Notes: generated from the letters alone by a model not told the origin. A stretch of 64,000 nt of DNA from Nemertoderma westbladi (GCA_032718475.1 JAUCBJ010003122.1:1-64000); one strand, 5' to 3'; shown: positions 10,292-58,070, counted from the stretch's first letter. Made by a program: numbers and translations.

Positions 10292-10385
10292 GTAAGTTAT
10301 ATGACTACAAGGCAGTCATCCAGTCTACCAAACGTGTTGTTTTGTTTTACTTTATGTTTTTGTGTTTACGTGCACGCACATAAAC

Positions 10386-26193: not shown

Positions 26194-26196
26194 ATG
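26194..26196 (+). CDS. LZTFL1: LZTFL1-like, coding exon 1 (ATG only)
   Basis: AAATG|GTAAGT, phase 0 matching the next exon. Confidence 0.6.
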
Positions 26197-29496: not shown

Positions 29497-29596
29497 CAAG
29501 CTGAACAATGGGAGTTAACATTTTCCGCTGATCTCGGTCGAATAGAAGATCAAAGGGGAATGGCAGACGTCGCAGCTTGGGAGGATAAAGAATTCG
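29497..29596 (+). CDS. LZTFL1: LZTFL1-like exon 4
   Basis: TTTAG|QAEQWELTFSADLGRIEDQRGMADVAAWEDKEF(G)|GTTAGT; aligns to QAEKWYLKLQTDISELENRELLEQVAEFEK; phase 1. Confidence 0.88.
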
Positions 29597-32500
29597 GTTA
29601 GTTTCAGTTTAATGGGATATATAATTTGGTTAGTTTCAGTTTAATAGGATAAATCATTTGGTTAGTTTCAGTTTAAAAGAATCAATAATTTGGTTAGTTT
29701 CAGTTTAATAGGATAAAGAATTTGGTTAGTTTCAGTTTAAGAGGATAAGGAATTCGGTTAGTTTCAGTTTAATAGGATAAAGAATTTGGTTAGTTTAAGT
29801 TTAAGAGGATAAATAATTCGGTTAGTTTCAGTTTAAGGGATTAAGAATTCGGTTAGTTTCAGTTTAAGAGGATAATAATGCGGTTAGCTTCAGTTTAAGA
29901 TGATAAGGAATTCGGTTAGTTTCAGTTTAATAGGATAAATAATTTGTTTAGTTTCAGTTTAAGAGGATAATAATTCGGTTAGTTTCAGTTTAAGGGATTA
30001 AGAATTCGGTTAGTTTCAGTTTAAGAGGATAAATAATTTGTTTAGCTTCAGTTTAAGAGGATAAGGAATTTGGTTAGTTTCAGTTTAATAGGATAAATAA
30101 TTTTGTTGGTTTCAGTTTAAGAGGATAAATAATTTGGTTAGTTTCAGTTTAAGAGGATAAGGAATTTGGTTAGTTTCAGTTTAATAGGATAAATAATTTT
30201 GTTGGTTTCAGTTTAAGAGGATAATAATGCGGTTAGTTTCAGTTTAGGAGGATAAATAATTTGTTTAGTTTCAGTTTAAGAGGATAATAATTCGGTTAGT
30301 TTCAGTTTAAGGGATTAAGAATTCGGTTAGTTTCAGTTTAAGAGGATAAATAATTTGTTTAGCTTCAGTTTAAGAGGATAAGGAATTTGGTTAGTTTCAG
30401 TTTATTAGGATAAATAATTTTGTTGGTTTCAGTTTAAGAGGATAAATAATTTGGTTAGTTTCAGTTTAAGAGGATAAAGAATTTGGTTAGTTTCAGTTTA
30501 AGAGGATAAGGAATTCGGTTAGTTTCAGTTTAAGATGATAAGGAATTCGGTTAGTTTCAGTTTAATAGGATAAAGAATTTGGTTAGTTTCAGTTTAAGAG
30601 GATAATAATTCGGTTAGTTTCAGTTTAAGGGATTAAGAATTCGGTTAGTTTCAGTTTAATAGGATAAATAATTTGTTTAGTTTCAGTTTAAGAGGATAAT
30701 AATTCGGTTAGTTTCAGTTTAAGGGATTAAGAATTCGGTTAGTTTCAGTTTAAGAGGATAAATAATTTGTTTAGCTTCAGTTTAAGAGGATAAGGAATTT
30801 GGTTAGTTTCAGTTTAATAGGATAAATAATTTTGTTGGTTTCAGTTTAAGAGGATAAATAATTTGGTTAGTTTCAGTTTAAGAGGATAAAGAATTTGGTT
30901 AGTTTCAGTTTAAGAGGATAAGGAATTCGGTTAGTTTCAGTTTAAGATGATAAGGAATTCGGTTAGTTTCAGTTTAAGAGGATAAAGAATTTGGTTAGTT
31001 TCAGTTTAAGAGGATAAGGAATTCGGTTAGTTTCAGTTTAAGATGATAAGGAATTCGGTTAGTTTCAGTTTAATAGGATAAATAATTTGTTTAGTTTCAG
31101 TTTAAGAGGATAAATAATTTGTTTAGTTTCAGTTTAAGAGGATAAGGAATTCGGTTAGTTTCATTTTAATAGGAAAAATAATTTTGTTGGTTTCAGTTTA
31201 ATAGGATAAATAATTTTGTTGGTTTCAGTTTAAGAGGATAATAATGCGGTTAGTTTCAGTTTAAGAGGATAAAGAATTTGGTTAGTTTCAGTTTAAGAGG
31301 ATAATAATTCGCTTAGTTTCAGTTTAAGAGGATAAATAATTTGTTTAGCTTCAGTTTAAGAGGATAATAATTCGGTTAGTTTCAGTTTAAGAGGATAAAT
31401 AATTTGTTTAGCTTCAGTTTAAGAGGATAAGGAATTCGGTTAGTTTCAGTTTAAGAGGATAAATAATTTGTTTAGTTTCAGTTTAAGAGGATAAGGAATT
31501 CGGTTAGTTTCAGTTTATTAGGATAAGTAATTTTGTTGGTTTCAGTTTAAGAGGATAAATAATTTGGTTAGTTTCAGTTTAAGAGGATAATAATGCGGTT
31601 AGTTTCAGTTTAAGAGGATAAATAATGTGTTTAGTTTCAGTTTAAGAGGATAAGGAATTCGGTTAGTTTCAGTTTAATAGGATAAATAATTTTGTTGGTT
31701 TCAGTTTAAGAGGATAAAGAATTTGGTTAGTTTCAGTTTAAGAGGATAAGGAATTCGGTTAGTTTCAGTTTAAGAGGATAAATAATTTGTTTAGCTTCAG
31801 TTTAAGAGGATAAATAATTTGTTTAGCTTCAGTTTAAGAGGATAAATAATTTGGTTAGTTTCAGTTTAAGAGGATAATAATGCGGTTAGTTTCAGTTTAA
31901 GAGGATAAATAATGTGTTTAGTTTCAGTTTAAGAGGATAAGGAATTCGGTTAGTTTCAGTTTAATAGGATAAATAATTTTGTTGGTTTCAGTTTAAGAGG
32001 ATAAAGAATTTGGTTAGTTTCAGTTTAAGAGGATAAGGAATTCGGTTAGTTTCAGTTTAAGAGGATAAATAATTTGTTTAGCTTCAGTTTAAGAGGATAA
32101 ATAATTTGTTTAGCTTCAGTTTAAGAGGATAAATAATTTGGTTAGTTTCAGTTTAAGAGGATAATAATGCGGTTAGTTTCAGTTTAAGAGGATAAATAAT
32201 GTGTTTAGTTTCAGTTTAAGAGGATAAGGAATTCGGTTAGTTTCAGTTTAATAGGATAAATAATTTTGTTAGTTTCAGTTTAAGAGGATAAAGAATTTGG
32301 TTAGTTTCAGTTTAAGAGGATAAGGAATTCGGTTAGTTTCAGTTTAATAGGATAAATAATTTTGTTGGTTTCAGTTTAAGAGGATAAAGAATTTGGTTAG
32401 TTTCAGTTTAAGAGGATAAGGAATTCGGTTAGTTTCAGTTTAAGAGGATAAATAATGTGTTTAGTTTCAGTTTAAGATTATAAGGAATTCGGTTAGTTTC

Positions 32501-35500
32501 AGTTTAATAGGATAAATAATTTTGTTGGTTTCAGTTTAAGAGGATAAAGAATTTGGTTAGTTTCAGTTTAAGAGGATAAGGAATTCGGTTAGTTTCAGTT
32601 TAAGAGGATAAATAATTTGTTTAGCTTCAGTTTAAGAGGATAAATAATTTGTTTAGCTTCAGTTTAAGAGGATAAATAATTTGGTTAGTTTCAGTTTAAG
32701 AGGATAATAATGCGGTTAGTTTCAGTTTAAGAGGATAAATAATGTGTTTAGTTTCAGTTTAAGAGGATAAGGAATTCGGTTAGTTTCAGTTTAAGAGGAT
32801 AAATAATGTGTTTAGTTTCAGTTTAAGAGGATAAGGAATTCGGTTAGTTTCAGTTTAATAGGATAAATAATTTTGTTGGTTTCAGTTTAAGAGGATAAAT
32901 AATTTGGTTAGTTTCAGTTTAAGAGGATAAAGAATTTGGTTAGTTTCAGTTTAAGAGGATAAGGAATTCGGTTAGTTTCAGTTTAAGATGATAAGGAATT
33001 CGGTTAGTTTCAGTTTAATAGGATAAAGAATTTGGTTAGCTTCAGTTTAAGAGGATAATAATTCGGTTAGTTTCAGTTTAAGAGGATAAATAATTTGTTT
33101 AGTTTCAGTTTAAGAGGATAAATAATTTGTTTAGTTTCAGTTTAAGAGGATAAGGAATTCGGTTAGTTTCATTTTAATAGGAAAAATAATTTTGTTGGTT
33201 TCAGTTTAATAGGATAAATAATTTTGTTGGTTTCAGTTTAAGAGGATAATAATGCGGTTAGTTTCAGTTTAAGAGGATAAAGAATTTGGTTAGTTTCAGT
33301 TTAAGAGGATAATAATTCGCTTAGTTTCAGTTTAAGAGGATAAATAATTTGTTTAGCTTCAGTTTAAGAGGATAATAATTCGGTTAGTTTCAGTTTAAGA
33401 GGATAAATAATTTGTTTAGCTTCAGTTTAAGAGGATAAATAATTTGTTTAGTTTCAGTTTAAGAGGATAAATAATTTGTTTAGCTTCAGTTTAAGAGGAT
33501 AAATAATTTGGTTAGTTTCAGTTTAAGAGGATAATAATGCGGTTAGTTTCAGTTTAAGAGGATAAATAATGTGTTTAGTTTCAGTTTAAGAGGATAAGGA
33601 ATTCGGTTAGTTTCAGTTTAATAGGATAAATAATTTTGTTGGTTTCAGTTTAAGAGGATAAAGAATTTGGTTAGTTTCAGTTTAAGAGGATAAGAAATTC
33701 GGTTAGTTTCAGTTTAAGAGGATAAATAATTTGTTTAGCTTCAGTTTAAGATGATAAATAATTTGTTTAGCTTCAGTTTAAGAGGATAAATAATTTGGTT
33801 AGTTTCAGTTTAAGAGGATAATAATGCGGTTAGTTTCAGTTTAAGAGGATAAATAATGTGTTTAGTTTCAGTTTAAGAGGATAAGGAATTCGGTTAGTTT
33901 CAGTTTAATAGGATAAATAATTTTGTTGGTTTCAGTTTAAGAGGATAAAGAATTTGGTTAGTTTCAGTTTAAGAGGCTAAGGAATTCGGTTAGTTTCAGT
34001 TTAATAGGATAAATAATTTTGTTGGTTTCAGTTTAAGAGGATAAAGAATTTGTTTAGCTTCAGTTTAAGAGGATAAATAATTTGTTTAGTTTCAGTTTAA
34101 GAGGATAAATAATTTGGTTAGTTTCATTTTAAGGGGATAATAATGCGGTTAGTTTCAGTTTAAGAGGATAAATAATGTGTTTAGTTTCAGTTTAAGAGGA
34201 TAAGGAATTCGGTTAGTTTCAGTTTAATAGGATAAATAATTTTGTTGGTTTCAGTTTAAGAGGATAAAGAATTTGGTTAGTTTCAGTTTAAGAGGATAAG
34301 GAATTCGGTTAGTTTCAGTTTAAGAGGATAAATAATTTGTTTAGCTTCAGTTTAAGAGGATAAATAATTTGTTTAGTTTCAGTTTAAGAGGATAAATAAT
34401 TTGGTTAGTTTCAGTTTAAGAGGATAATAATGCGGTTAGTTTCAGTTTAAGAGGATAAATAATGTGTTTAGTTTCAGTTTAAGAGGATAAGGAATTCGGT
34501 TAGTTTCAGTTTAATAGGATAAATAATTTTGTTGGTTTCAGTTTAAGAGGATAAAGAATTTGGTTAGTTTCAGTTTAAGAGGATAAGGAATTCGGTTAGT
34601 TTCAGTTTAAGAGGATAAATAATTTGTTTAGCTTCAGTTTAAGAGGATAAATAATTTGTTTAGCTTCAGTTTAAGAGGATAAATAATTTGGTTAGTTTCA
34701 GTTTAAGAGGATAATAATGCGGTTAGTTTCAGTTTAAGAGGATAAATAATGTGTTTAGTTTCAGTTTAAGAGGATAAGGAATTCGGTTAGTTTCAGTTTA
34801 ATAGGATAAATAATTTTGTTGGTTTCAGTTTAAGAGGATAAAGAATTTGGTTAGTTTCAGTTTAAGAGGATAAGGAATTCGGTTAGTTTCAGTTTAATAG
34901 GATAAATAATTTTGTTGGTTTCAGTTTAAGAGGATAAAGAATTTGGTTAGTTTCAGTTTAAGAGGATAAGGAATTCGGTTAGTTTCAGTTTAAGAGGATA
35001 AATAATGTGTTTAGTTTCAGTTTAAGAGGATAAGGAATTCGGTTAGTTTCAGTTTAATAGGATAAATAATTTTGTTGGTTTCAGTTTAAGAGGATAAAGA
35101 ATTTGGTTAGTTTCAGTTTAAGAGGATAAGGAATTCGGTTAGTTTCAGTTTAAGAGGATAAATAATTTGTTTAGCTTCAGTTTAAGAGGATAAATAATTT
35201 GTTTAGCTTCAGTTTAAGAGGATAAATAATTTGGTTAGTTTCAGTTTAAGAGGATAATAATGCGGTTAGTTTCAGTTTAAGAGGATAAATAATGTGTTTA
35301 GTTTCAGTTTAAGAGGATAAGGAATTCGGTTAGTTTCAGTTTAAGAGGATAAATAATGTGTTTAGTTTCAGTTTAAGAGGATAAGGAATTCGGTTAGTTT
35401 CAGTTTAATAGGATAAATAATTTTGTTGGTTTCAGTTTAAGAGGATAAATAATTTGGTTAGTTTCAGTTTAAGAGGATAAAGAATTTGGTTAGTTTCAGT

Positions 35501-38500
35501 TTAAGAGGATAAGGAATTCGGTTAGTTTCAGTTTAAGATGATAAGGAATTCGGTTAGTTTCAGTTTAATAGGATAAAGAATTTGGTTAGCTTCAGTTTAA
35601 GAGGATAATAATTCGGTTAGTTTCAGTTTAAGAGGATAAATAATTTGTTTAGTTTCAGTTTAAGAGGATAAATAATTTGTTTAGTTTCAGTTTAAGAGGA
35701 TAAGGAATTCGGTTAGTTTCATTTTAATAGGAAAAATAATTTTGTTGGTTTCAGTTTAATAGGATAAATAATTTTGTTGGTTTCAGTTTAAGAGGATAAT
35801 AATGCGGTTAGTTTCAGTTTAAGAGGATAAAGAATTTGGTTAGTTTCAGTTTAAGAGGATAATAATTCGCTTAGTTTCAGTTTAAGAGGATAAATAATTT
35901 GTTTAGCTTCAGTTTAAGAGGATAATAATTCGGTTAGTTTCAGTTTAAGAGGATAAATAATTTGTTTAGCTTCAGTTTAAGAGGATAAATAATTTGTTTA
36001 GTTTCAGTTTAAGAGGATAAATAATTTGTTTAGCTTCAGTTTAAGAGGATAAATAATTTGGTTAGTTTCAGTTTAAGAGGATAATAATGCGGTTAGTTTC
36101 AGTTTAAGAGGATAAATAATGTGTTTAGTTTCAGTTTAAGAGGATAAGGAATTCGGTTAATTTCAGTTTAATAGGATAAATAATTTTGTTGGTTTCAGTT
36201 TAAGAGGATAAAGAATTTGGTTAGTTTCAGTTTAAGAGGATAAGGAATTCGGTTAGTTTCAGTTTAAGAGGATAAATAATTTGGTTAGCTTCAGTTTAAG
36301 AGGATAAATAATTTGGTTAGTTTCAGTTTAAGAGGATAATAATGCGGTTAGTTTCAGTTTAAGAGGATAAATAATGTGTTTAGTTTCAGTTTAAGAGGAT
36401 AAGGAATTCGGTTAGTTTCAGTTTAATAGGATAAATAATTTTGTTGGTTTCAGTTTAAGAGGATAAAGAATTTGGTTAGTTTCAGTTTAAGAGGATAAGG
36501 AATTCGGTTAGTTTCAGTTTAATAGGATAAATAATTTTGTTGGTTTCAGTTTAAGAGGATAAAGAATTTGTTTAGCTTCAGTTTAAGAGGATAAATAATT
36601 TGTTTAGTTTCAGTTTAAGAGGATAAATAATTTGGTTAGTTTCAGTTTAAGAGGATAATAATGCGGTTAGTTTCAGTTTAAGAGGATAAATAATGTGTTT
36701 AGTTTCAGTTTAAGAGGATAAGTAATTCGGTTAGTTTCAGTTTAATAGGATAAATAATTTTGTTGGTTTCAGTTTAAGAGGATAAAGAATTTGGTTAGTT
36801 TCAGTTTAAAAGGATAAGGAATTCGGTTAGTTTCAGTTTAAGAGGATAAATAATTTGTTTAGCTTCAGTTTAAGAGGATAAATAATTTGTTTAGTTTCAG
36901 TTTAAGAGGATAAATAATTTGTTTAGCTTCAGTTTAAGAGGATAAATAATTTGGTTAGTTTCAGTTTAAGAGGATAATAATGCGGTTAGTTTCAGTTTAA
37001 GAGGATAAATAATGTGTTTAGTTTCAGTTTAAGAGGATAAGGAATTCGGTTAGTTTCAGTTTAATAGGATAAATAATTTTGTTGGTTTCAGTTTAAGAGG
37101 ATAAAGAATTTGGTTAGTTTCAGTTTAAGAGGATAAGGAATTCGGTTAGTTTCAGTTTAAGAGGATAAATAATTTGTTTAGCTTCAGTTTAAGAGGATAA
37201 ATAATTTGTTTAGCTTCAGTTTAAGAGGATAAATAATTTGGTTAGTTTCAGTTTAAGAGGATAATAATGCGGTTAGTTTCAGTTTAAGATGATAAATAAT
37301 GTGTTTACTTTCAGTTTAAAAGGATAAGGAATTCGGTTAGTTTCAGTTTAATAGGATAAATAATTTTGTTGGTTTCAGTTTAAGAGGATAAAGAATTTGG
37401 TTAGTTTCAGTTTAAGAGGATAAGGAATTCGGTTAGTTTCAGTTTAATAGGATAAATAATTTTGTTGGTTTCAGTTTAAGAGGATAAAGAATTTGGTTAG
37501 TTTCAGTTTAAGAGGATAATGAATTCGGTTAGTTTCAGTTTAAGAGGATAAATAATGTGTTTAGTTTCAGTTTAAGAGGATAAGGAATTCGGTTAGTTTC
37601 AGTTTAATAGGATAAATAATTTTGTTGGTTTCAGTTTAAGAGGATAAAGAATTTGGTTAGTTTCAGTTTAAGAGGATAAGGAATTCGGTTAGTTTCAGTT
37701 TAAGAGGATAAATAATTTGTTTAGCTTCAGTTTAAGAGGATAAATAATTTGTTTAGCTTCAGTTTAACAGGATAAATAATTTGGTTAGTTTCAGTTTAAG
37801 AGGATAATAATGCGGTTAGTTTCAGTTTAAGAGGATAAATAATGTGTTTACTTTCAGTTTAAGAGGATAAGGAATTCGGTTAGTTTCAGTTTAAGAGGAT
37901 AAATAATGTGTTTAGTTTCAGTTTAAGAGGATAAGGAATTCGGTTAGTTTCAGTTTAATAGGATAAATAATTTTGTTGGTTTCAGTTTAAGAGGATAAAT
38001 AATTTGGTTAGTTTCAGTTTAAGAGGATAAAGAATTTGGTTAGTTTCAGTTTAAGAGGATAAGGAATTCGGTTAGTTTCAGTTTAAGATGATAAGGAATT
38101 CGGTTAGTTTCAGTTTAATAGGATAAAGAATTTGGTTAGTTTCAGTTTAAGAGGATAATAATTCGGTTAGTTTCAGTTTAAGAGGATAAATAATTTGTTT
38201 AGTTTCAGTTTAAGAGGATAAATAATTTGTTTAGTTTCAGTTTAAGAGGATAAGGAATTCGGTTAGTTTCATTTTAATAGGAAAAATAATTTTGTTGGTT
38301 TCAGTTTAATAGGATAAATAATTTTGTTGGTTTCAGTTTAAGAGGATAATAATGCGGTTAGTTTCAGTTTAAGAGGATAAAGAATTTGGTTAGTTTCAGT
38401 TTAAGAGGATAATAATTCGCTTAGTTTCAGTTTAAGAGGATAAATAATTTGTTTAGCTTCAGTTTAAGAGGATAATAATTCGGTTAGTTTCAGTTTAAGA

Positions 38501-41500
38501 GGATAAATAATTTGTTTAGCTTCAGTTTAAGAGGATAAGGAATTCGGTTAGTTTCAGTTTAAGAGGATACATAATTTGTTTAGTTTCAGTTTAAGAGGAT
38601 AAGGAATTCGGTTAGTTTCAGTTTATTAGGATAAGTAATTTTGTTGGTTTCAGTTTAAGAGGATAAAGAATTTGGTTAGTTTCAGTTTAAGAGGATAATA
38701 ATGCGGTTAGTTTCAGTTTAAGAGGATAAATAATGTGTTTAGTTTCAGTTTAAGAGGATAAGGAATTCGGTTAGTTTCAGTTTAATAGGATAAATAATTT
38801 TGTTGGTTTCAGTTTAAGAGGATAAAGAATTTGGTTAGTTTCAGTTTAAGAGGATAAGGAATTCGGTTAGTTTCAGTTTAAGAGGATAAATAATTTGTTT
38901 AGCTTCAGTTTAAGAGGATAAATAATTTGTTTAGCTTCAGTTTAAGAGGATAAATAATTTGGTTAGTTTCAGTTTAAGAGGATAAATAATGTGTTTAGTT
39001 TCAGTTTAAGAGGATAAGGAATTCGGTTAGTTTCAGTTTAATAGGATAAATAATTTTGTTGGTTTCAGTTTAAGAGGATAAAGAATTTGGTTAGTTTCAG
39101 TTTAAGAGGATAAGGAATTCGGTTAGTTTCAGTTTAATAGGATAAATAATTTTGTTGGTTTCAGTTTAAGAGGATACAGAATTTGGTTAGTTTCAGTTTA
39201 AGAGGATAAGGAATTCGGTTAGTTTCAGTTTAAGAGGATAAATAATTTGTTTAGCTTCAGTTTAAGAGGATAAATAATTTGTTTAGCTTCAGTTTAAGAG
39301 GATAAATAATGTGTTTAGTTTCAGTTTAAGAGGATAAGGAATTCGGTTAGTTTCAGTTTAAGAGGATAAATAATGTGTTTAGTTTCAGTTTAAGAGGATA
39401 AGGAATTCGGTTAGTTTCAGTTTAATAGGATAAATAATTTTGTTGGTTTCAGTTTAAGAGGATAAATAATTTGGTTAGTTTCAGTTTAAGAGGATAAAGA
39501 ATTTGGTTAGTTTCAGTTTAAGAGGATAAGGAATTCGGTTAGTTTCAGTTTAAGATGATAAGGAATTCGGTTAGTTTCAGTTTAATAGGATAAAGAATTT
39601 GGTTAGTTTCAGTTTAAGAGGATAATAATTCGGTTAGTTTCAGTTTAAGAGGATAAATAATTTGTTTAGTTTCAGTTTAAGAGGATAAATAATTTGTTTA
39701 GTTTCAGTTTAAGAGGATAAGGAATTCGGTTAGTTTCATTTTAATAGGAAAAATAATTTTGTTGGTTTCAGTTTAATAGGATAAATAATTTTGTTGGTTT
39801 CAGTTTAAGAGGATAATAATGCGGTTAGTTTCAGTTTAAGAGGATAAAGAATTTGGTTAGTTTCAGTTTAAGAGGATAATAATTCGCTTAGTTTCAGTTT
39901 AAGAGGATAAATAATTTGTTTAGCTTCAGTTTAAGAGGATAATAATTCGGTTAGTTTCAGTTTAAGAGGATAAATAATTTGTTTAGCTTCAGTTTAAGAG
40001 GATAAGGAATTCGGTTAGTTTCAGTTTAAGAGGATAAATAATTTGTTTAGTTTCAGTTTAAGAGGATAAGGAATTCGGTTAGTTTCAGTTTATTAGGATA
40101 AGTAATTTTGTTGGTTTCAGTTTAAGAGGATAAAGAATTTGGTTAGTTTCAGTTTAAGAGGATAATAATGCGGTTAGTTTCAGTTTAAGAGGATAAATAA
40201 TGTGTTTAGTTTCAGTTTAAGAGGATAAGGAATTCGGTTAGTTTCAGTTTAATAGGATAAATAATTTTGTTGGTTTCAGTTTAAGAGGATAAAGAATTTG
40301 GTTAGTTTCAGTTTAAGAGGATAAGGAATTCGGTTAGTTTCAGTTTATGAGGATAAATAATTTGTTTAGCTTCAGTTTAAGAGGATAAATAATTTGTTTA
40401 GCTTCAGTTTAAGAGGATAAATAATTTGGTTAGTTTCAGTTTAAGAGGATAAATAATGTGTTTAGTTTCAGTTTAAGAGGATAAGGAATTCGGTTAGTTT
40501 CAGTTTAATAGGATAAATAATTTTGTTGGTTTCAGTTTAAGAGGATAAAGAATTTGGTTAGTTTCAGTTTAAGAGGATAAGGAATTCGGTTAGTTTCAGT
40601 TTAATAGGATAAATAATTTTGTTGGTTTCAGTTTAAGAGGATAAAGAATTTGGTTAGTTTCAGTTTAAGAGGATAAGGAATTCGGTTAGTTTCAGTTTAA
40701 GAGGATAAATAATTTGTTTAGTTTCAGTTTAAGAGGATAAATAATTTGTTTAGCTTCAGTTTAAGAGGATAAATAATTTGGTTAGTTTCAGTTTAAGAGG
40801 ATAATAATGCGGTTAGTTTCAGTTTAAGAGGATAAATAATGTGTTTAGTTTCAGTTTAAGAGGATAAGGAATTCGGTTAGTTTCAGTTTAATAGGATAAA
40901 TAATTTTGTTGGTTTCAGTTTAAGAGGATAAAGAATTTGGTTAGTTTCAGTTTAAGAGGATAAGGAATTCGGTTAGTTTCAGTTTAATAGGATAAATAAT
41001 TTTGTTGGTTTCAGTTTAAGAGGATAAAGAATTTGGTTAGTTTCAGTTTAAGAGGATAAGGAATTTGGTTAGTTTCAGTTTAAGAGGATAAATAATGTGT
41101 TTAGTTTCAGTTTAAGAGGATAAGGAATTCGGTTAGTTTCAGTTTAATAGGATAAATAATTTTGTTGGTTTCAGTTTAAGAGGATAAAGAATTTGGTTAG
41201 TTTCAGTTTAAGAGGATAAGGAATTCGGTTAGTTTCAGTTTAAGAGGATAAATAATTTGTTTAGCTTCAGTTTAAGAGGATAAATAATTTGTTTAGCTTC
41301 AGTTTAAGAGGATAAATAATTTGGTTAGTTTCAGTTTAAGAGGATAATAATGCGGTTAGTTTCAGTTTAAGAGGATAAATAATGTGTTTAGTTTCAGTTT
41401 AAGAGGATAAGGAATTCGGTTAGTTTCAGTTTAAGAGGATAAATAATGTATTTAGTTTCAGTTTAAGAGGATAAGGAATTCGGTTAGTTTCAGTTTAATA

Positions 41501-44500: not shown

Positions 44501-44557
44501 AAGAATTTGGTTAGTTTCAGTTTAAGAGGATAAGGAATTCGGTTAGTTTCAGTTTAA

Positions 44558-45267
44558 GGGGGGGGTACACCATTTTCGGACAACTCTTCGATTTATCACT
44601 CTCAGCGTTTCAAAATTGTTTGGTTTTGGCTAAAATTTGGCATATAGGTGCCTAAGATGCTATTCTACATGACAGGTCAGAAAGTTTTTTTTTCCGCTAT
44701 TTAATATTAGTTAATACTAGTTAACAATAAAAAAAACTTGGTTGCGCTTAAAACCCTAAGGCTTTTACAGTTTTGAACCTAATCACATGAAAGTTTTTTT
44801 ATATGATAGATCAAAGATGGGGCAACATAACTATCAGGCGAAATTTTGTTAAAATAATTCTGCACCGCTAGGTGGCGCTGCAAATTTATGCTAATTTTTA
44901 GGTTTTTTATAAATAGTATTAAATTTTATTAACAAAAAATTTCGAAAAGGTGCCTGATACTTTTATGCAGGGTGGCTATCTAGACACCCACAGGAAGTTT
45001 CAGACTAATTACTCAAAAATTGTAGAAGTAGTAGGGTTCTGAAGTTGACAATTTCATGAAAAAAATATTTGGAGATAATCAACCTTTCATTATACATAGT
45101 AATAGTAATTTCAATAGGATTCCCTAAATGGAAATTGTTATAACTTGAGAAGTAAAAGAGATATTAAATAGCGGTTTTCAGATTTGGAAACACCATTCAA
45201 TGGTGCATTATAATATACCATAAAAAAAATTTCGACATATTTTGGACCAAAATGGTGTACCCCCCCC
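44558..45267. mobile_element. 710-bp non-autonomous DNA transposon, Kolobok-type, copy 1
   Basis: TTAA TSD (44554-44557, 45268-45271); 19-bp perfect TIR GGGGGGGGTACACCATTTT. RR..YY termini with TTAA fit Kolobok rather than piggyBac (CCY..RGG). Confidence 0.88.
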
Positions 45268-48200: not shown

Positions 48201-48298
48201 AATAGGATAAATAATTTTGTTGGTTTCAGTTTAAGAGGATAAAGAATTTGGTTAGTTTCAGTTTAAGAGGATAAGGAATTCGGTTAGTTTCAGTTTAA

Positions 48299-49009
48299 GG
48301 GGGGGGGTACACCATTTTCGGACAACTCTTCGATTTATCACTCTCAGCGTTTCAAAATTGTTTGGTTTTGGCTAAAATTTGGCATATAGGTGCCTAAGAT
48401 GCTATTCTACATGACAGGTCAGAAAGTTTTTTTTTCCGCTATTTAATATTAGTTAATACTAGTTAACAATAAAAAAAACTTGGTTGCGCTTAAAACCCTA
48501 AGGCTTTTACAGTTTTGAACCTAATCACATGAAAGTTTTTTTATATGATAGATCAAAGATGGGGCAACATAACTATCAGGCGAAATTTTGTTAAAATAAT
48601 TCTGCACCGCTAGGTGGCGCTGCAAATTTATGCTAATTTTTAGGTTTTTTATAAATAGTATTAAATTTTATTAACAAAAAATTTCGAAAAGGTGCCTGAT
48701 ACTTTTATGCAGGGTGGCTATCTAGACACCCACAGGAAGTTTCAGACTAATTACTCAAAAATTGTAGAAGTAGTAGGGTTCTGAAGTTGACAATTTCATG
48801 AAAAAAATATTTGGAGATAATCAACCTTTCATTATACATAGTAATAGTAATTTCAATAGGATTCCCTAAATGGAAATTGTTATAACTTGAGAAGTAAAAG
48901 AGATATTAAATAGCGGTTTTCAGATTTGGAAACACCATTCAATGGTGCATTATAATATACCATAAAAAAAATTTCGACATATTTTGGACCAAAATGGTGT
49001 ACCCCCCCC
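48299..49009. mobile_element. Kolobok-type MITE, copy 2
   Basis: Appears identical to copy 1 apart from one extra terminal G; same TTAA flanks. Confidence 0.88.
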
Positions 49010-52000
49010 TTAAGAGGATAAATAATTTGTTTAGCTTCAGTTTAAGAGGATAAATAATTTGGTTAGTTTCAGTTTAAGAGGATAATAATGCGGTTAGTTT
49101 CAGTTTAAGAGGATAAATAATGTGTTTAGTTTCAGTTTAAGAGGATAAGGAATTCGGTTAGTTTCAGTTTAAGAGGATAAATAATTTGTTTAGCTTCAGT
49201 TTAAGAGGATAAATAATTTGGTTAGTTTCAGTTTAAGAGGATAATAATGCGGTTAGTTTCAGTTTAAGAGGATAAATAATTTGGTTAGTTTCAGTTTAAG
49301 AGGATAAGGAATTCGGATAGTTTCAGTTTAATAGGATAAATAATTTTGTTGGTTTCAGTTTAAGAGGATAAATAATGTGTTTAGTTTCAGTTTAAGAGGA
49401 TAAGGAATTCGGATAGTTTCAGTTTAATAGGATAAATAATTTTGTTGGTTTCAGTTTAAGAGGATAAAGAATTTGGTTAGTTTCAGTTTAAGAGGATAAG
49501 GAATTCGGTTAGTTTCAGTTTAATAGGATAAATAATTTTGTTGGTTTCAGTTTAAGAGGATAAAGAATTTGTTTAGCTTCAGTTTAAGAGGATAAATAAT
49601 TTGTTTAGTTTCAGTTTAAGAGGATAAATAATTTGTTTAGCTTCAGTTTAAGAGGATAAATAATTTGGTTAGTTTCAGTTTAAGAGGATAAATAATTTGG
49701 TTAGTTTCAGTTTAAGAGGATAATAATGCGGTTAGTTTCAGTTTAAGAGGATAAATAATGTGTTTAGTTTCAGTTTAAGAGGATAAGGAATTCGGTTAGT
49801 TTCAGTTTAATAGGATAAATAATTTTGTTGGTTTCAGTTTAAGAGGATAAAGAATTTGGTTAGTTTCAGTTTAAGAGGATAAGGAATTCGGTTAGTTTCA
49901 GTTTAAGAGGATAAATAATTTGTTTAGCTTCAGTTTAAGAGGATAAATAATTTGGTTAGTTTCAGTTTAAGAGGATAATAATGCGGTTAGTTTCAGTTTA
50001 AGAGGATAAATAATGTGTTTAGTTTCAGTTTAAGAGGATAAGGAATTTGGTTAGTTTCAGTTTAAGAGGATAAATAATTTGTTTAGCTTCAGTTTAAGAG
50101 GATAAATAATTTGGTTAGTTTCAGTTTAAGAGGATAATAATGCTGTTAGTTTCAGTTTAAGAGGATAAATAATGTGTTTAGTTTCAGTTTAAGAGGATAA
50201 GGAATTCGGTTAGTTTCAGTTTAATAGGATAAATAATTTTGTTGGTTTCAGTTTAAGAGGATAAAGAATTTGGTTAGTTTCAGTTTAAGAGGATAAGGAA
50301 TTCGGTTAGTTTCAGTTTAAGAGGATAAATAATTTGTTTAGCTTCAGTTTAAGAGGATAAATAATTTGGTTAGTTTCAGTTTAAGAGGATAATAATGCGG
50401 TTAGTTTCAGTTTAAGAGGATAAATAATGTGTTTAGTTTCAGTTTAAGAGGATAAGGAATTCGGTTAGTTTCAGTTTAAGAGGATAAATAATTTGTTTAG
50501 CTTCAGTTTAAGAGGATAAATAATTTGGTTAGTTTCAGTTTAAGAGGATAATAATGCGGTTAGTTTCAGTTTAAGAGGATAAATAATGTGTTTAGTTTCA
50601 GTTTAAGAGGATAAGGAATTCGGATAGTTTCAGTTTAATAGGTTAAATAATTTTGTTGGTTTCAGTTTAAGAGGATAAAGAATTTGGTTAGTTTCAGTTT
50701 AAGAGGATAAGGAATTCGGTTAGTTTCAGTTTAATAGGATAAATAATTTTGTTGGTTTCAGTTTAAGAGGATAAAGAATTTGTTTAGCTTCAGTTTAAGA
50801 GGATAAATAATTTGTTTAGTTTCAGTTTAAGAGGATAAATAATTTGTTTAGCTTCAGTTTAAGAGGATAAATAATTTGGTTAGCTTCAGTTTAAGAGGAT
50901 AATAATGCGGTTAGTTTCAGTTTAAGAGGATAAATAATGTGTTTAGTTTCAGTTTAAGAGGATAAGGAATTCGGTTAGTTTCAGTTTAAGAGGATAAATA
51001 ATTTGTTTAGCTTCAGTTTAAGAGGATAAATAATTTGGTTAGTTTCAGTTTAAGAGGATAATAATGCGGTTAGTTTCAGTTTAAGAGGATAAATAATGTG
51101 TTTAGTTTCAGTTTAAGAGGATAAGGAATTCGGATAGTTTCAGTTTAATAGGATAAATAATTTTGTTGGTTTCAGTTTAAGAGGATAAAGAATTTGGTTA
51201 GTTTCAGTTTAAGAGGATAAGGAATTCGGTTAGTTTCAGTTTAATAGGATAAATAATTTTGTTGGTTTCAGTTTAAGAGGATAAAGAATTTGTTTAGCTT
51301 CAGTTTAAGAGGATAAATAATTTGTTTAGTTTCAGTTTAAGAGGATAAATAATTTGGTTAGTTTCAGTTTAAGAGGATAATAATGCGGTTAGTTTCAGTT
51401 TAAGAGGATAAATAATGTGTTTAGTTTCAGTTTAAGAGGATAAGGAATTCGGTTAGTTTCAGTTTAATAGGATAAATAATTTTGTTGGTTTCAGTTTAAG
51501 AGGATAAAGAATTTGGTTAGTTTCAGTTTAAGAGGATAAGGAATTCGGTTAGTTTCAGTTTAAGAGGATAAATAATTTGTTTAGCTTCAGTTTAAGAGGA
51601 TAAATAATTTGTTTAGTTTCAGTTTAAGAGGATAAATAATTTGCTTAGCTTCAGTTTAAGAGGATAAATAATTTGGTTAGTTTCAGTTTAAGAGGATAAT
51701 AATGCGGTTAGTTTCAGTTTAAGAGGATAAATAATGTGTTTAGTTTCAGTTTAAGAGGATAAGGAATTCGGTTAGTTTCAGTTTAATAGGATAAATAATT
51801 TTGTTGGTTTCAGTTTAAGAGGATAAAGAATTTGGTTAGTTTCAGTTTAAGAGGATAAGGAATTCGGTTAGTTTCAGTTTAAGAGGATAAATAATTTGTT
51901 TAGCTTCAGTTTAAGAGGATAAATAATTTGTTTAGCTTCAGTTTAAGAGGATAAATAATTTGGTTAGTTTCAGTTTAAGAGGATAATAATGCGGTTAGTT

Positions 52001-52974
52001 TCAGTTTAAGAGGATAAATAATGTGTTTACTTTCAGTTTAAGAGGATAAGGAATTCGGTTAGTTTCAGTTTAATAGGATAAATAATTTTGTTGGTTTCAG
52101 TTTAAGAGGATAAAGAATTTGGTTAGTTTCAGTTTAAGAGGATAAGGAATTCGGTTAGTTTCAGTTTAATAGGATAAATAATTTTGTTGGTTTCAGTTTA
52201 AGAGGATAAAGAATTTGGTTAGTTTCAGTTTAAGAGGATAAGGAATTCGGTTAGTTTCAGTTTAAGAGGATAAATAATTTGTTTAGCTTCAGTTTAAGAG
52301 GATAAGGAATTCGGTTAGTTTCAGTTTAATAGGATAAATAATTTTGTTGGTTTCAGTTTAAGAGGATAAAGAATTTGGTTAGTTTCAGTTTAAGAGGATA
52401 ATAATGCGGTTAGTTTCAGTTTAAGAGGATAAAGAATTTGGTTAGTTTCAGTTTAAGAGGATAATAATTCGCTTAGTTTCAGTTTAAGAGGATAAATAAT
52501 TTGTTTAGCTTCAGTTTAAAAGGATAAATAATTGGTTTAGCTTCAGTTTAAGAGGATAAGGAATTCGGTTAGTTTCAGTTTATTAGGATAAATAATTTTG
52601 TTGGTTTCAGTTTAAGAGGATAAAGAATTTGGTTAGTTTCAGTTTAAGAGGATAATATTTCGGTTAGTTTCAGTTTAAGAGGATAAATAATTTGTTTAGT
52701 TTCAGTTTAAGAGGATAAGGAATTCGGATAGTTTCAGTTTAATAGTGTGATATAAATGTTTAATGTATTTTATTGAGATACCGGAAGTATCCCAGATAAT
52801 CGGTTTGACCTTTGCAATGTGTACGGTGAAGGGATTGATTTATATTAGATAGTAGGTAAGGCATTGCAAGAGGGGTTTATAGATTAATTGTCGTTTGTTT
52901 GATTAAAGTTTGGAGTTAATATTTAATTGTGATTTCCCTGTTTTAATATTGGCGCAGTGTGATTTACATAAAAC

Positions 52975-53628
52975 ATGAAATTATCAATAACATCCGATTT
53001 CGCATGTTGGGAAACAGCATTGAGGGCGGAGATCAACTTGTTAGTGTTGCAAGGGAAAATCGAGGAGGAAAAAAAGGACGAAGCTTTGCTAATGAAGATA
53101 CAGATTTCCGTAGAAGACAGCATTTTAAAGAAAATGCATATAGACCGCCGAACCACAGCAAATTCTTTACTAACAAAACTCAAAGAGGTATGGACACAGT
53201 TGGTGGTACCAACCGACGGAGTAAATTCATTAGAGTTTGACATAGTGTCAAGGGACGATGTAACCAAATTTGATGACAATTTGAGACTACTCCGCTATAA
53301 ACGAACGATTTCCGATGATTTAGCTATTAGTATATTCATAAAAAACATAAAAAATGAAGCGTCAAGAAAGATCGTTCTGGTCCAGCAATTCACGTCATGG
53401 GATGCGTTGGTGCGTTTCATTATGGACACAGGTATCTCTCTAACCAATTGTAACCAACATACTTCGCATCTACCAGTATCAGGAGCCGTAAAAACGGGAT
53501 GCTACAATTGCGGTGTAGCCGGCCACTTTGCTAGACAATGCTTCAAGCGGTGCAATCGTTGCACCAATCACAATCACTTGCCTAAAGACTGTTTAAAAGG
53601 AAAATCAAAAAACGACGCTTCCCAGTAG
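52975..53628 (+). CDS. gag: Gypsy gag with two CCHC zinc knuckles
   Basis: CYNCGVAGHFARQC and CNRCTNHNHLPKDC. Confidence 0.9.
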   Translation: MKLSITSDFACWETALRAEINLLVLQGKIEEEKKDEALLMKIQISVEDSILKKMHIDRRTTANSLLTKLKEVWTQLVVPTDGVNSLEFDIVSRDDVTKFDDNLRLLRYKRTISDDLAISIFIKNIKNEASRKIVLVQQFTSWDALVRFIMDTGISLTNCNQHTSHLPVSGAVKTGCYNCGVAGHFARQCFKRCNRCTNHNHLPKDCLKGKSKNDASQ

Positions 53629-53671
53629 TGGGGGGTGCAACTACTGGGATCATCAACGAACCGATAGCACC
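53607..53671 (+). promoter_or_regulatory. -1 programmed ribosomal frameshift signal
   Basis: A AAA AAC at 53607-53613, 6-nt spacer, 10-bp stem TCCCAGTAGT/ACTACTGGGA; pol is in the -1 frame. Confidence 0.85.
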
Positions 53672-56393
53672 ATTCATTTACGCAGAAATCGATTTGAATG
53701 GTGGAAGCCCACGCATACCTATGTTAGACACCGGATCTGAATTAAACTTAATGTCAATAAACATGGCTAATGACTTGTCAGTTCCGATTATACCGCATGG
53801 TATATATTTTCGTACAGCATCTGGTGATGTTGTTAAATCGAGAGGTTTTGTTCAGGTTTGGGTGAAGTGGGGAGATATTCGTCAAACATTTGATTTTCAT
53901 GTACTGGGAGATCCTCCATTTGATTTAATACTTGGCATTAGGGCCATATGGACCTTCCCCTCAATATTATCTTATCCCATTGTGGCGATGACTGCGACTA
54001 CGACTACCGATACAGCTCTTTCAAAGGAATACTTTTTTAAACTTTTCCGTTGGCCATCATCATGGTCATCCGATAATACAAAACGTCTCCACGACTTGAT
54101 CTGGGAATTTCAGGATATATTTAGTCGATCGAAATTCGATGTTGGAAGAATGAAATCATTCACCCATCACATAGAAACGTCTGGTCCTCCTATTTTCAGA
54201 AGACAATACAAAAACGCATACACAGAACGAGAAAATGTACACAAGATAATCACGGAGATGCATGAAAATAACATTATCTCTCCTGCTTCTTCGCCATGGA
54301 ATTCGCCATATTTGTTGGTAGATAAACCTGACCACTCAAAACGATTTTGTGTTGATTTTAGACCTCTAAACAAAGTCACTCAGGACAATAAATTCCCCAT
54401 GCCAGTAATAGATGAACTTTTAGATAGACTTCAAGGAAAGAAAATTTTTTCGACGTTAGACATGACGGCCGGTTATTGGCAAGTACCCTTATCTGAGGAA
54501 AGTAAACCGAAGACGGCTTTCCAAGCGGATCATAGACAGTGGCAATTCAATGTGTTAGCAATGGGATTGAAAAATGCGGCCCCAGAATTCCAACGAGACA
54601 TGCAAACTGTATTAAGAGGTCTCAACACGTTTCCTTACCAGGACGACATCATCAACGCTACTGAGACTGAAGAAGAACATCTAGAGAGCCTACAGAAAAT
54701 TTTCGTACGATTACGAAATGAAGGAATTAAATTAAAACCATCAAAATGCGCATTTGGTCTAACTGAGATATCGTATTTGGGTTTTATTATTCAAGATGGA
54801 CAAGTCAAACCTGATCCTGATAAAATAAAGTGTATACAAGAATTTCCTACGCCAACCAATGGAAAGGAATTACAGTCATTTCTTGGACTCATTAACTTTT
54901 ATTCAAGGTTCGCTAAGAGATTAGCTACATACGCGGCTCCCTTATATGAGTTGACAACAAAATCAAAAAATAAATTCAAATGGTTACCCGAACATTCCGA
55001 AGTCTTTGATAAAGTAAAAAATTTATTCTCAGAAGCAGTATCATTATACATTCCCGATTTATCACAAGCTTTCATAGTCAGAACCGACGCAAGCGATAGG
55101 GCTGTTGGAGCTGTGTTGAGTCAAATAATTAATTCTGAAGAAGTCCCAGTGCATTTCGCAAGTCGAACCCTACGCGGATCGGAACTTAACTGGTCAACTA
55201 CTGATAAAGAATTTTTTAGTTTACATTGGGCAATCAGAAAATTTGATATGTACTTAAAGGGAAATGAAGTAACAGTTTACACTGACCACAAACCATTAAT
55301 TGGACTGATAGACAAGAGAGCTGGAAACAATCAACGACAAAGACGATGGCTAGATTATATACAGGACTTTAAATTAAATATTAACTATATACGTGGAGTT
55401 GAAAACGTTGTGGCAGACACTTTGTCTCGCTTGCCATTAGACTCAACGTTCCCAAATGTAAAGGCCGCTCCATTCGTACCAAACGCCGTTTGTGCTCTCA
55501 AGGCGTTATCTGACAAAGATTCCGAGATAGTAGCAAGGCAATACCATGATGCGGGACATTACTCTATAAACAAAACTCGTGCGGCAATTTTAAATGACGG
55601 CCTATGGTTCCCAAAAATGAGATCCACACTACGATCAATTCAAGATGATTGTATAGAGTGTCGCACAAAGAAGTCGTACACAAAAAATCCCCCAAAAGGA
55701 GAACTACCAAACCTAGAAACTCGTGCTATTGGGGAGATTGTCTCTATTGACATTGTTGGACCCTTACCAACAACAAGATTAGGATTTCGTTACATCTTGT
55801 CGATGATAGATATGGCGTCACGTTACCTGGAAGCGGTACCAATGAAAATGGTTACAGCGCAAATAACTGCAGACGCTTTTCAGAAAGGATGGGTATTTAG
55901 ACATGGTCCTCCACGACGAATCCACACCTACAACGGTTCCCAATTTCGTTCTGCGTTGTTTAATAATATTCTGGAAACTGCCTTTTGCAATTATGAAATT
56001 GATCATACATATTCATCGCCGTACTATCCTCAAGGCAATGGAGTTATTGAAAGAATACACCGTACTTTAAAAGATCGCATTCGATGCATGTCTGGGGATT
56101 GGCAATCGAACTTATCGGAAGCTGTTTATAATATAAATCGCCATGTTCACGATGGTATTGAGTGTTCGCCGTTTTTCGCACTCTATGGGTATAATGTCCC
56201 ACCAGCCACTTACCCAGCAATGCTTAAAGAAAACCCATCCATCATGCAATCGTTAGCTCCTCCTATCCCACCACCACAAAGATCAACGTTTGGCCCCAAA
56301 TTTCACCCACCTCAACGAGTTGTAGCAAAATTATCTCCGCAGGTTGTTCGCCTAGATCAATATGGAACTGTGAATATAAGAAAATGTACTTAG
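53613..56393 (+). CDS. pol: Gypsy pol (protease, RT, RNase H, integrase), expressed by frameshift
   Basis: LDTGS; RFCVDFRPLN, YQDD; TDASD, TDHKPL; HHCC, IDIVGP, NGVIER. The second catalytic Asp of integrase reads Tyr. Confidence 0.93.
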   Translation, partial: RRFPVVGGATTGIINEPIAPFIYAEIDLNGGSPRIPMLDTGSELNLMSINMANDLSVPIIPHGIYFRTASGDVVKSRGFVQVWVKWGDIRQTFDFHVLGDPPFDLILGIRAIWTFPSILSYPIVAMTATTTTDTALSKEYFFKLFRWPSSWSSDNTKRLHDLIWEFQDIFSRSKFDVGRMKSFTHHIETSGPPIFRRQYKNAYTERENVHKIITEMHENNIISPASSPWNSPYLLVDKPDHSKRFCVDFRPLNKVTQDNKFPMPVIDELLDRLQGKKIFSTLDMTAGYWQVPLSEESKPKTAFQADHRQWQFNVLAMGLKNAAPEFQRDMQTVLRGLNTFPYQDDIINATETEEEHLESLQKIFVRLRNEGIKLKPSKCAFGLTEISYLGFIIQDGQVKPDPDKIKCIQEFPTPTNGKELQSFLGLINFYSRFAKRLATYAAPLYELTTKSKNKFKWLPEHSEVFDKVKNLFSEAVSLYIPDLSQAFIVRTDASDRAVGAVLSQIINSEEVPVHFASRTLRGSELNWSTTDKEFFSLHWAIRKFDMYLKGNEVTVYTDHKPLIGLIDKRAGNNQRQRRWLDYIQDFKLNINYIRGVENVVADTLSRLPLDSTFPNVKAAPFVPNAVCALKALSDKDSEIVARQYHDAGHYSINKTRAAILNDGLWFPKMRSTLRSIQDDCIECRTKKSYTKNPPKGELPNLETRAIGEIVSIDIVGPLPTTRLGFRYILSMIDMASRYLEAVPMKMVTAQITADAFQKGWVFRHGPPRRIHTYNGSQFRSALFNNILETAFCNYEIDHTYSSPYYPQGNGVIERIHRTLKDRIRCMSGDWQSNLSEAVYNINRHVHDGIECSPFFALYGYNVPPATYPAMLKENPSIMQSLAPPIPPPQRSTFGPKFHPPQRVVAKLSPQVVRLDQYGTVNIRKCT

Positions 56394-58070
56394 TTCAATA
56401 TTATTGACTCCATTTAGCGCGATTCTAATTTAGATTCATATTTTTGATGTTGTTGAATTTTATATAAAATTTTATATAAATGTTTAATGTATTTTATTGA
56501 GATACCGGAAGTATCTCAGATAATCGGTTTCACCTTTGCAATGTGTACGGTGAAGGGATTGATTTATATTAGATATTAGGTAAGGCATTGCGAAGGGGGG
56601 TTTATATATTAATTGTCGTTTGTTTGATTAAAGTTTGGAGTTAATATTTAATTGTGATTTCCCTGTTTTAATAAATAGGATAAAGAATTTGGTTAGTTTC
56701 AGTTTAAGAGGATAATAATTCGGTTAGTTTCAGTTTAATAGGATAAATAATTTTGTTGGTTTCAGTTTAAGAGGATAAAGAATTTGGTTAGTTTCAGTTT
56801 AAGAGGATAAGGAATTCGGTTAGTTTCAGTTTAAGAGGATAAATAATTTGGTTAGTTTCAGTTTAAGAGGATAATAATTCGGTTAGTTTCAGTTTAAGAG
56901 GATAAATAATTTGTTTTGTTTCAGTTTAAGAGGATAAGGAATTCGGTTAGTTTCAGTTTAATAGGATAAATAATTTTGTTGGTTTTAGTTTAATGGGATA
57001 AATAATTTTGTTGGTTTCAGTTTAAGAGGATAAAGAATTGGGTTAGTTTCAGTTTAAGAGGATAAGGAATTTGGTTAGTTTCAGTTTAAGAGGATAATAA
57101 TTCGCTTAGTTTCAGTGTAAGAGGATAAATAATTTGTTTAGTTTCAGTTTAATAGGATAAATAATTTTGTTGGTTTCAGTTTAAGAGGATAAAGAATTTG
57201 GTTAGTTTCAGTTTAAGGAGATAAAGAATTTGGTTAGTTTCAGTTTAAGAGGATAATAATTCGCTTAGTTTCAGTGTAAGAGGATAAATAATTTGTTTAG
57301 TTTCAGTTTAATAGGATAAATAATTTTGTTGGTTTCAGTTTAAGAGGATAAGGAATTCGGTTAGTTTCAGTTTAATAGGATAAATAATTTTGTTGGTTTT
57401 AGTTTAATAGGATAAATAATTTTGTTGGTTTCAGTTTAAGAGGATAAATAATTTGTTTAGTTTCAGTTTAAGAGGATAAGGAATTTGGTTAGTTTCAGTT
57501 TAATAGGATAAATAATTTTCTTGGTTTCAGTTTAATAGGATAAATAATTTTGTTGGTTTCAGTTTAAGAGGATAAAGAATTTGTTAGTTTCAGTTTAAGA
57601 GGATAATAATTTGGTTAGTTTCAGTTTAAAAGGATAATAATTCGGTTAGTTTCAGTTAAGAGGATAAATAATTTGTTTAGCTTCAGTTTAAGAGGATAAG
57701 GAATTCGGTTAGTTTCAGTTTAATAGGATAAAAAATTTGGTTAGTTTCAGTTTAAGAGGATAATAATTCAGTTAGTTTCAGTTTAAGAGGATAAATAATT
57801 TGTTTACTTTCAGTTTAAGAGGAGAAGGAATTCGGTTGGTTTCAGTTTAATAGGGTAAAGAATTTGGTTAGTTTCAGTTTAATAGGATAAATAATTTGGT
57901 TAGTTTCAGTTTAAGAGGATAAAGAATTTGGTTAGTTTCAGTTTAAGAGGATAAAGTATTGGGTGAGTTTTAGTTTCAACTTTGGTTGGTAAATAACAAG
58001 ACGCCTTGTGTTTATATCATTATTAAGTGATGTACTGCGTCCACTGTAACTATTATCTAATCGTCCGCAG

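What the first reader, a model, noticed from the sequence alone, without database searches (positions are those of the whole stretch)
29581..57978. A 28-kb intronic satellite whose monomer is the gene's own exon/intron junction: hundreds of copies of a 5' splice site
Seen: the first monomer GAGGATAAAGAATTCG|GTTAGTTTCAGTTTAA is the last 16 coding nt of LZTFL1 exon 4 (E-D-K-E-F-G), the donor, and the start of intron 4. It is amplified about 700-fold, and the phase-matched exon 5 follows ~90 bp after the array. Many monomers keep G|GTTAGT, others carry variants (GTTTAG, GTTGGT), and nearly all carry an acceptor-like YTTCAG. Any downstream donor would include the in-frame TAG (GGT TAG), and a YTTCAG-to-next-donor pseudo-exon starts GTT TAA, so only the first donor can give protein. 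Inference: this records the birth of a satellite from a splice junction. It poses a splice-site choice problem and may act as a U1 decoy array, protection against premature polyadenylation, a stepwise-splicing scaffold, or an NMD-linked attenuator. LZTFL1 is a BBSome/cilia regulator, a loose parallel to satellite-filled giant introns in Drosophila Y fertility genes.
Basis: partly seen in the sequence, partly recalled or inferred. Interest (0 to 1): 0.9.

Follow-up and report, generated by a model that had tools for sequence, protein, structure and literature searches.

The report
Splice donor copied 723 times
The end of one exon and its splice signal are repeated 723 times inside the next intron of an animal cilia-type gene, and the one spliced transcript found joins the first signal straight to the next exon, so this is likely a harmless, very large example of an oddity already known from several human genes.

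Summary
Real, but of a known kind. Window 29581-57978 holds 723 units of 31-32 bp (23.0 kb), not 28 kb of satellite: two Kolobok-type MITE copies and a Ty3/gypsy retrotransposon add 5.3 kb. Unit 1 is the last 16 nt of exon 4 plus the first 16 nt of intron 4 of an LZTFL1-like gene; 391 of 723 units keep G|GTTAGT, 221 have lost the GT. A spliced contig in run X4 joins exon 4 at the first donor directly to exon 5, so the gene is expressed and correctly spliced. Both array ends recur in DNA contigs of two samples; its length is unverified. No test supported a function: almost no AG|GT ratchet points, donor decay no different from other positions by distinct alleles, no array RNA contig. Human F7, CBS, IFI6, LMNB2 and PDGF have the same design with 5-26 units (PMC1557585); this scan noted it before in other genomes (up to 56). 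What stands out is size, about 28 times the largest case I found in print, and a stronger donor in the last unit, 108 nt before exon 5, that the transcript ignores. Most likely neutral expansion tolerated by first-donor commitment.

The parts
26194..26196 (+). Coding end of exon 1 (ATG), donor GTAAGT follows
   Evidence: X4 contig skips 316 nt GT..AG here
26513..26652 (+). Exon 2 of the LZTFL1-like gene
   Evidence: Pfam PF15294 positions 1-23, E=0.04; spliced in X4
28855..28993 (+). Exon 3
   Evidence: Pfam PF15294 positions 26-69, E=1.8e-10; spliced in X4
29497..29596 (+). Exon 4; its last 16 nt are the first half of unit 1
   Evidence: Pfam PF15294 positions 71-103, E=0.045
29581..29612 (+). 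Unit 1: 16 exon nt + authentic donor (GT at 29597) + 14 intron nt
   Evidence: donor used in the X4 contig
29581..57978 (+). Tandem array, 723 units of 31-32 bp in four segments (470, 95, 117, 41 units)
29597..58070 (+). Intron 4, 28,474 nt (124 nt if reduced to one unit without inserts)
   Evidence: junction seen in X4
44558..45267 (.). 710-bp non-autonomous DNA transposon, TTAA target duplication, 19-bp terminal inverted repeats starting with G (Kolobok-type termini)
   Evidence: definition from PMC9587614
48299..49009 (.). Second copy of the same element, identical but for one G in a homopolymer
43938..51443 (.). Near-perfect tandem duplication of a ~3.74-kb block (95 units plus the element); recent unequal exchange or assembly artefact
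52746..56673 (+). Ty3/gypsy-type LTR retrotransposon, 3,928 bp, 5-bp target duplication, open gag (218 aa) and pol (935 aa) frames, LTRs 97% identical, same orientation as the host gene
57947..57978 (+). Last unit, with the array's only G|GTRAG donor (TGG|GTGAGT, GT at 57963), 108 nt before exon 5
58071..58228 (+). Exon 5; the next exon lies outside the window
   Evidence: X4 contig covers 58070-58228 with exon 4 letters before it; next exon's start not in window

Best explanation
A 32-bp piece spanning the exon 4/intron 4 border of an expressed LZTFL1-like gene is present as 723 tandem units, likely grown by neutral slippage and unequal exchange, and the gene likely tolerates it because splicing commits to the first donor, the one used in the spliced transcript found. 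Steps: (1) shown: unit 1 is exon end plus donor, and the spliced contig joins 29596 to 58071; (2) inferred: a first duplication of the junction in a short intron of about 124 nt; (3) inferred from structure: growth by copying blocks of units (periods of 13, 28, 41, 54, 80 and 95 units), with more diverged units at both ends; (4) shown as insertions with target duplications: a DNA transposon and an LTR retrotransposon landed in the existing array, and the transposon lies in a duplicated block; (5) inferred from human minigene work: the first donor wins because it closes the 100-nt exon first and stays attached to the polymerase, so identical or stronger donors downstream stay silent; any slip would give a stop codon and likely be degraded.
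For: Spliced 1,349-nt contig in X4, depth 436, no differences, skips introns 1-3 and carries exon 4's last 30 letters directly before 58070; the record positions of the two pieces meet (795). No X4 contig on the array units laid (depth 0 at 29601-29710 and 57883-58064). Donor decay looks neutral: 15 of 51 distinct alleles fall in the 9 donor positions of 32, p=0.88; 10 of 51 in the 6 core positions, p=0.86; intact G|GTTAGT stays at 28-41 per 60 units along the array, with no depletion next to the exon (units 1-9 all intact). Rare variants: 20 of the 40 end units against 38 of 683 inner units (p=2e-13). Block periodicity, 95-unit exact repeat. Precedent: F7 minigenes use only the most upstream site, even against TGG/gtgagt, the same 9-mer as the last unit here (PMC1557585); upstream donor tethered to Pol II through U1 (PMC8316553 abstract).
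Against: Positions with variants above 5% are concentrated in the donor 9-mer (6 of 9 against 3 of 23, Fisher p=0.006); this is post hoc and several of the changes do not weaken the donor, but it could mean that donor-weakened units spread preferentially. The TTTCAGTTTAA part is nearly invariant. RNA evidence is one contig from one run and study, listed as 'DNA?' and taken as RNA because it lacks introns; contigs drop rare isoforms. No orthologous locus was found, so the short ancestral intron is inferred. The mechanism of donor choice is carried over from mammalian cells to an unrelated animal.
Confidence: 0.75

Rival explanations
1. The array works as an expression dial: internal donors, or the 21-nt pseudo-exon ending at the strong last donor (57942-57962), are used in a share of transcripts and send them to nonsense-mediated decay.
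For: 711 of 712 pseudo-exons carry a stop; the last unit has the best U1 match (7 Watson-Crick + 3 wobble against 7 + 1 for unit 1) and an acceptor-like TTTCAG 21 nt upstream; in human IFI6 and CBS two extra sites are used (PMC1557585 introduction).
Against: No X4 contig or joint on the last three units or first four units. The stops follow simply from the unit's sequence. 617 of 722 unit acceptors have another AG 4-12 nt upstream. Some leak is expected without any function.
Confidence: 0.1
2. The array is a U1-loading strip that protects the transcript from premature cleavage at poly(A) signals, notably those of the sense-oriented retrotransposon and the MITEs inside it.
For: 392 of 502 GT-bearing units have 7 Watson-Crick pairs to the U1 consensus, as many as real donors of the gene; inserts carry AATAAA/ATTAAA, including in both LTRs; full-length spliced mRNA exists.
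Against: Units themselves have no AATAAA or ATTAAA, and the inserts came after the array, so protection cannot be why it arose; 221 of 723 units lost the GT with no spatial pattern; whether X4's sample carries the inserts is unknown.
Confidence: 0.06
3. A pre-existing satellite from elsewhere in the genome inserted here and supplied the donor and the last five codons.
For: No whole genome is held, so other loci cannot be excluded; the consensus differs from unit 1 at two positions; the loose-end test is insensitive when a contig holds under about 40 array letters.
Against: Of 69, 375 and 29 DNA contigs laid on 57883-58640 in X1, X2, X3, every loose end on the units was exon 4 or more units; summed depth lies within the wide range simulated for this one array; exon 4 aligns ungapped to the family profile through the EDKEF codons; no look-alike in the scan's other windows.
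Confidence: 0.06
4. The array is a scaffold for stepwise (recursive or nested) removal of the 28-kb intron.
For: Each unit has a donor-like and an acceptor-like motif, so internal donor-to-acceptor splices are conceivable.
Against: No AG|GT ratchet point in the unit (3 AGGT in 23,036 nt): a splice from the first donor to an internal acceptor would not rebuild a donor and would fix a stop codon. The array is itself what made the intron long.
Confidence: 0.03

Closest known systems
Human F7 intron 7 37-bp VNTR (Borensztajn et al. 2006, PMC1557585; abstract, introduction, results section 9 and discussion read)
   Same: First unit spans the exon/intron border, the donor is reiterated in the intron, only the most upstream site is seen used; their engineered stronger site TGG/gtgagt equals the last unit's donor here.
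   Different: 5-9 units against 723; 4 exon bases per unit against 16; no inserted transposons or block structure described in the parts read; mammal against a distant animal; allele length variation shown there, untested here.
Human IFI6 (6-16), CBS intron 13, LMNB2 and PDGF junction minisatellites (seen only as summarised in the introduction of PMC1557585)
   Same: Same architecture; LMNB2 uses only the authentic donor.
   Different: 10-26 units; IFI6 and CBS also use two nearby pseudo-sites, which was not seen here at contig level.
Drosophila Y-linked gigantic fertility genes (PMC11207136, abstract only)
   Same: Intron enlarged far beyond the gene's other introns (316, 2,202, 503 nt); co-transcriptional splicing likely matters.
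   Different: Megabase scale there, 28 kb here; that their repeats are simple satellites unrelated to splice sites is recalled, not read.
Recursive splicing at ratchet points (recalled)
   Same: Long intron with internal splice-site-like motifs.
   Different: Needs AG|GT; the unit has an acceptor-like and a donor-like motif 21 nt apart, not abutting.

Membership tests
Junction-spanning minisatellites (F7/CBS/IFI6 type) | First unit spans an exon/intron boundary of a real gene | tested here: met
Junction-spanning minisatellites (F7/CBS/IFI6 type) | Donor sequence reiterated in the intron | tested here: met
   391 of 723 G|GTTAGT; 163 with the same 9-mer as the authentic donor
Junction-spanning minisatellites (F7/CBS/IFI6 type) | Most upstream donor used in mature RNA | tested here: met
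   One spliced contig in one run; minor sites not excluded
Junction-spanning minisatellites (F7/CBS/IFI6 type) | Single locus | tested here: inconclusive
   No foreign flanks among loose ends but low sensitivity; no genome
Junction-spanning minisatellites (F7/CBS/IFI6 type) | Variable copy number between alleles | not testable with these tools
   Only short contigs; none spans the array
Recursive splicing (ratchet points) | AG|GT juxtaposed acceptor and donor inside the intron | tested here: not met
   3 AGGT in 23,036 nt of units
Recursive splicing (ratchet points) | Intermediates or saw-tooth nascent coverage | not testable with these tools
   No raw or nascent RNA reads offered
LZTFL1 family (name recalled for Pfam PF15294) | Collinear match to PF15294 above the curated cut-off | tested here: met
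   Exon 3 41.3 bits against cut-off 28.2; exons 2 and 4 weak (E 0.04) but collinear; exon 5 no hit
LZTFL1 family (name recalled for Pfam PF15294) | Orthology to a named LZTFL1 | tested here: inconclusive
   Single-exon searches gave no hit
Kolobok non-autonomous element (inserts) | TTAA target duplication with 5'-RR..YY-3' termini and inverted repeats | tested here: met
   definition PMC9587614; no transposase sought
Ty3/gypsy LTR retrotransposon (insert) | Two LTRs, target duplication, gag then protease-RT-RNase H-integrase | tested here: met
   ends are TG..TA, not the usual TG..CA

The most novel reading that the evidence does not exclude
The array has been co-opted: about 390 intact U1 sites shield the transcript from the poly(A) signals of the sense-oriented retrotransposon and MITEs that landed in it, and the strong last donor with its upstream TTTCAG forms a 21-nt poison microexon, so that array length and make-up set the dose of a ciliary trafficking protein; a satellite born at a known base and turned into a splicing regulator.
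Probability: 0.1. Interest if true: 0.7.

Novelty: new member of a known kind. Interest (0 to 1): 0.34.

Why it matters
Even if neutral, it is an extreme natural test of 5' splice-site choice: 390 intact competitors and a stronger donor 108 nt from the acceptor lose to a donor 28 kb away, which favours first-come, exon-side commitment over acceptor proximity in an animal far from mammals. It is also a satellite-sized array whose birthplace and likely founding unit can be named, with block structure and inserted elements that order its growth. It does not reveal a new mechanism; the kind has been in print since at least 2006.

Tried and rejected
No whole genome held, so no genome-wide count of the unit. 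No RNA holder listed by the run search; X4 turned out to hold a spliced contig. Homologue searches with exon 3 alone were empty (20 candidates, none at E<=0.001; 0 in 1.84 billion; 0 in PDB); the atlas did not answer; one homologue search was left unused; the full-length protein was not searched, so the ancestral state of the last five codons and the orthologous intron remain open. Depth as copy number: rejected; observed 137,830, 101,417 and 3,010 base-coverage per unit depth in X1, X2, X3 against a simulated 5,346-231,923 depending on an unknown length filter; X3 falls below that range although it shares X2's sample. The junctions of the three inserts did not appear as loose ends, as expected from the short array share of such contigs, so neither their presence in other samples nor the 3.74-kb duplication is confirmed. 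Avoidance of AATAAA in the units (one change away in about 440 units) was considered and dropped: only 51 distinct alleles exist at all. Retrocopy explanation for the X4 contig: rejected because X4 has no depth on the unique intron parts. Pseudogene: rejected (open frame, spliced contig). Literature searches for a larger or differently working case listed none; PMC10078293 and PMC7544216 passages did not bear on it. No supplements were read; genome-wide tables of splicing-linked repeats (PMC10078293) could hold longer human cases.

Full report
Observation. Tandem Repeats Finder reports a 32-bp array at 29581-52742 and 56677-57976. Parsing it unit by unit gives 723 units, 73 distinct sequences, 23,036 bp in a 28,398-bp span. 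The rest is three insertions: two copies of a 710/711-bp element with TTAA target duplication and 19-bp inverted repeats beginning with G (44558-45267, 48299-49009; Kolobok-type by the definition in PMC9587614, passages read), and a 3,928-bp Ty3/gypsy-type retrotransposon (52746-56673) with a 5-bp target duplication, open gag and pol frames and LTRs differing by 4 substitutions and 1 gap in 200 bp. Outside the array the best match to the consensus is 20 of 32 letters.

The gene. Five exon pieces on the + strand (26194-26196, 26513-26652, 28855-28993, 29497-29596, 58071-58228) have GT..AG borders and give an open frame of 180 codons. Exons 2, 3 and 4 match Pfam PF15294 at profile positions 1-23, 26-69 and 71-103 (E 0.04, 1.8e-10, 0.045); exon 5 has no hit. 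That PF15294 is the LZTFL1 family, and that LZTFL1 regulates the BBSome, is recalled. Single-exon homologue searches found nothing. The neighbouring TAF2 is 44-49% identical to vertebrate, echinoderm, mollusc, arthropod and coral proteins alike (120 listed of 208 hits): an animal without a close relative among the hits.

RNA. The run search listed 6 runs, none on record as RNA; I laid 4 of the 6. Run X4 holds a 1,349-nt contig (depth 436, no differences) that skips introns 1-3 at GT..AG exactly as modelled and has no depth on the unique intron parts. On the far side the same contig covers 58070-58228, and the 30 loose letters before it are the end of exon 4; the record coordinates of both pieces meet at position 795. 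So the first donor (29597) is joined to exon 5 across 28,474 nt. X4 has no contig on units 1-4 beyond the donor or on the last three units. This is one contig in one study; contigs drop rare isoforms, so minor use of other sites is open.

Is the array real? DNA contigs of X1 (sample S1, possibly the source) and X2/X3 (sample S2, another study, one difference at 57983) run from unique sequence into the units at both ends (X1 and X3 to 29652, X2 to 29613; all three from 57925-57927 onward). Summed depth on the last units reaches 125,956 against 40 in X1 and 68,808 against 30 in X2, but only 3,402 against 54 in X3. A simulation of this array alone gives a range wide enough to include X1 and X2. 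So a many-copy array exists in two samples; its length, the inserts and the 3.74-kb duplication rest on the assembly alone.

Origin and growth. Unit 1 occurs once exactly, lies one substitution from 185 other units, and ranks joint second as centre of the 19 common variants. In 229 of 723 units the exon half still reads EDKEF, in 374 it holds a stop. Exon 4 aligns to the profile to its last codon, modest evidence that the codons predate the repeat. With one unit and no inserts the intron would be 124 nt. Unit types recur at periods of 80, 95, 54, 41, 28 and 13, one 95-unit block with its transposon is repeated exactly but for one G, and rare variants make up 20 of 40 end units against 38 of 683 inner ones: the pattern expected from unequal exchange (established model, recalled).

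Splice signals. GT is kept in 502 of 723 units, G|GTTAGT in 391, the authentic 9-mer in 163. Distinct alleles are not enriched or depleted in the donor (15 of 51 in 9 of 32 positions, p=0.88), and intact donors are evenly spread, with units 1-9 all intact. Against this, positions with common variants cluster in the donor 9-mer (6 of 9 against 3 of 23, p=0.006, post hoc). The last unit has TGG|GTGAGT, the only G|GTRAG in the array, with better U1 pairing than unit 1 and only 108 nt from the acceptor; the transcript found does not use it. Any downstream donor or pseudo-exon gives a stop (711 of 712). There is no AG|GT ratchet point in the unit and no AATAAA/ATTAAA in the units; the inserts do carry such signals.

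Comparison. PMC1557585 (abstract, introduction, one results section and discussion read) describes the F7 intron 7 repeat and lists IFI6, CBS, LMNB2 and PDGF as genes whose first minisatellite unit spans an exon/intron border, with 5-26 sites. In F7 minigenes only the most upstream site is used, even against TGG/gtgagt. PMC8316553 (abstract) offers a mechanism, tethering of the upstream donor to polymerase through U1. Searches listed no case with hundreds of units; the library lacks most subscription journals and I read no supplements. This scan's notes list at least five such arrays in other genomes, of 5-56 extra units (unchecked); none by place or sequence for this one.

Verdict. Observation real with corrections; birth from the junction likely; function not supported by any test here. 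A new, unusually large member of a known kind. Interest 0.34; a co-opted regulatory role has about 10% probability and would merit 0.7.

Noticed in passing
15943-20145 (-): Intronless 1,400-codon TAF2 frame (Pfam; hits) whose C-terminus holds about 30 copies of a 10-residue Arg/Ser/Pro-rich repeat (16090-17005).
   Followed up: partly
52746-56673: LTR retrotransposon with open gag and pol, in the host gene's sense direction, ends TG..TA, ATTAAA in both LTRs; the first bases of the two LTRs do not align.
   Followed up: partly
43938-51443: 3.74-kb block present twice, differing by one homopolymer base; very recent duplication or assembly artefact.
   Followed up: partly
58069-58076: Exon 5 begins with GT after its acceptor (AG|GTAAAC), a donor-like site at the end of a long intron; the X4 contig includes exon 5.
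   Followed up: no
165-4038 (+) and 58766-60958 (-): Non-LTR retroelements: endonuclease and reverse transcriptase frames at the window start, and a fragmented one in intron 5.
   Followed up: no
27578-27815 and 28292-28767: Very high-copy dispersed repeats in intron 2 (summed depth up to 505,770 against 16 in X1).
   Followed up: no
5476-5823 and 7185-7532: Two further short tandem arrays (34 bp x 10, 72 bp x 5), not at a modelled exon border.
   Followed up: no
about 9660-10400 and 21490-24500 (+): Exon-like stretches with GT..AG borders of two further small genes, seen by eye; not modelled.
   Followed up: no
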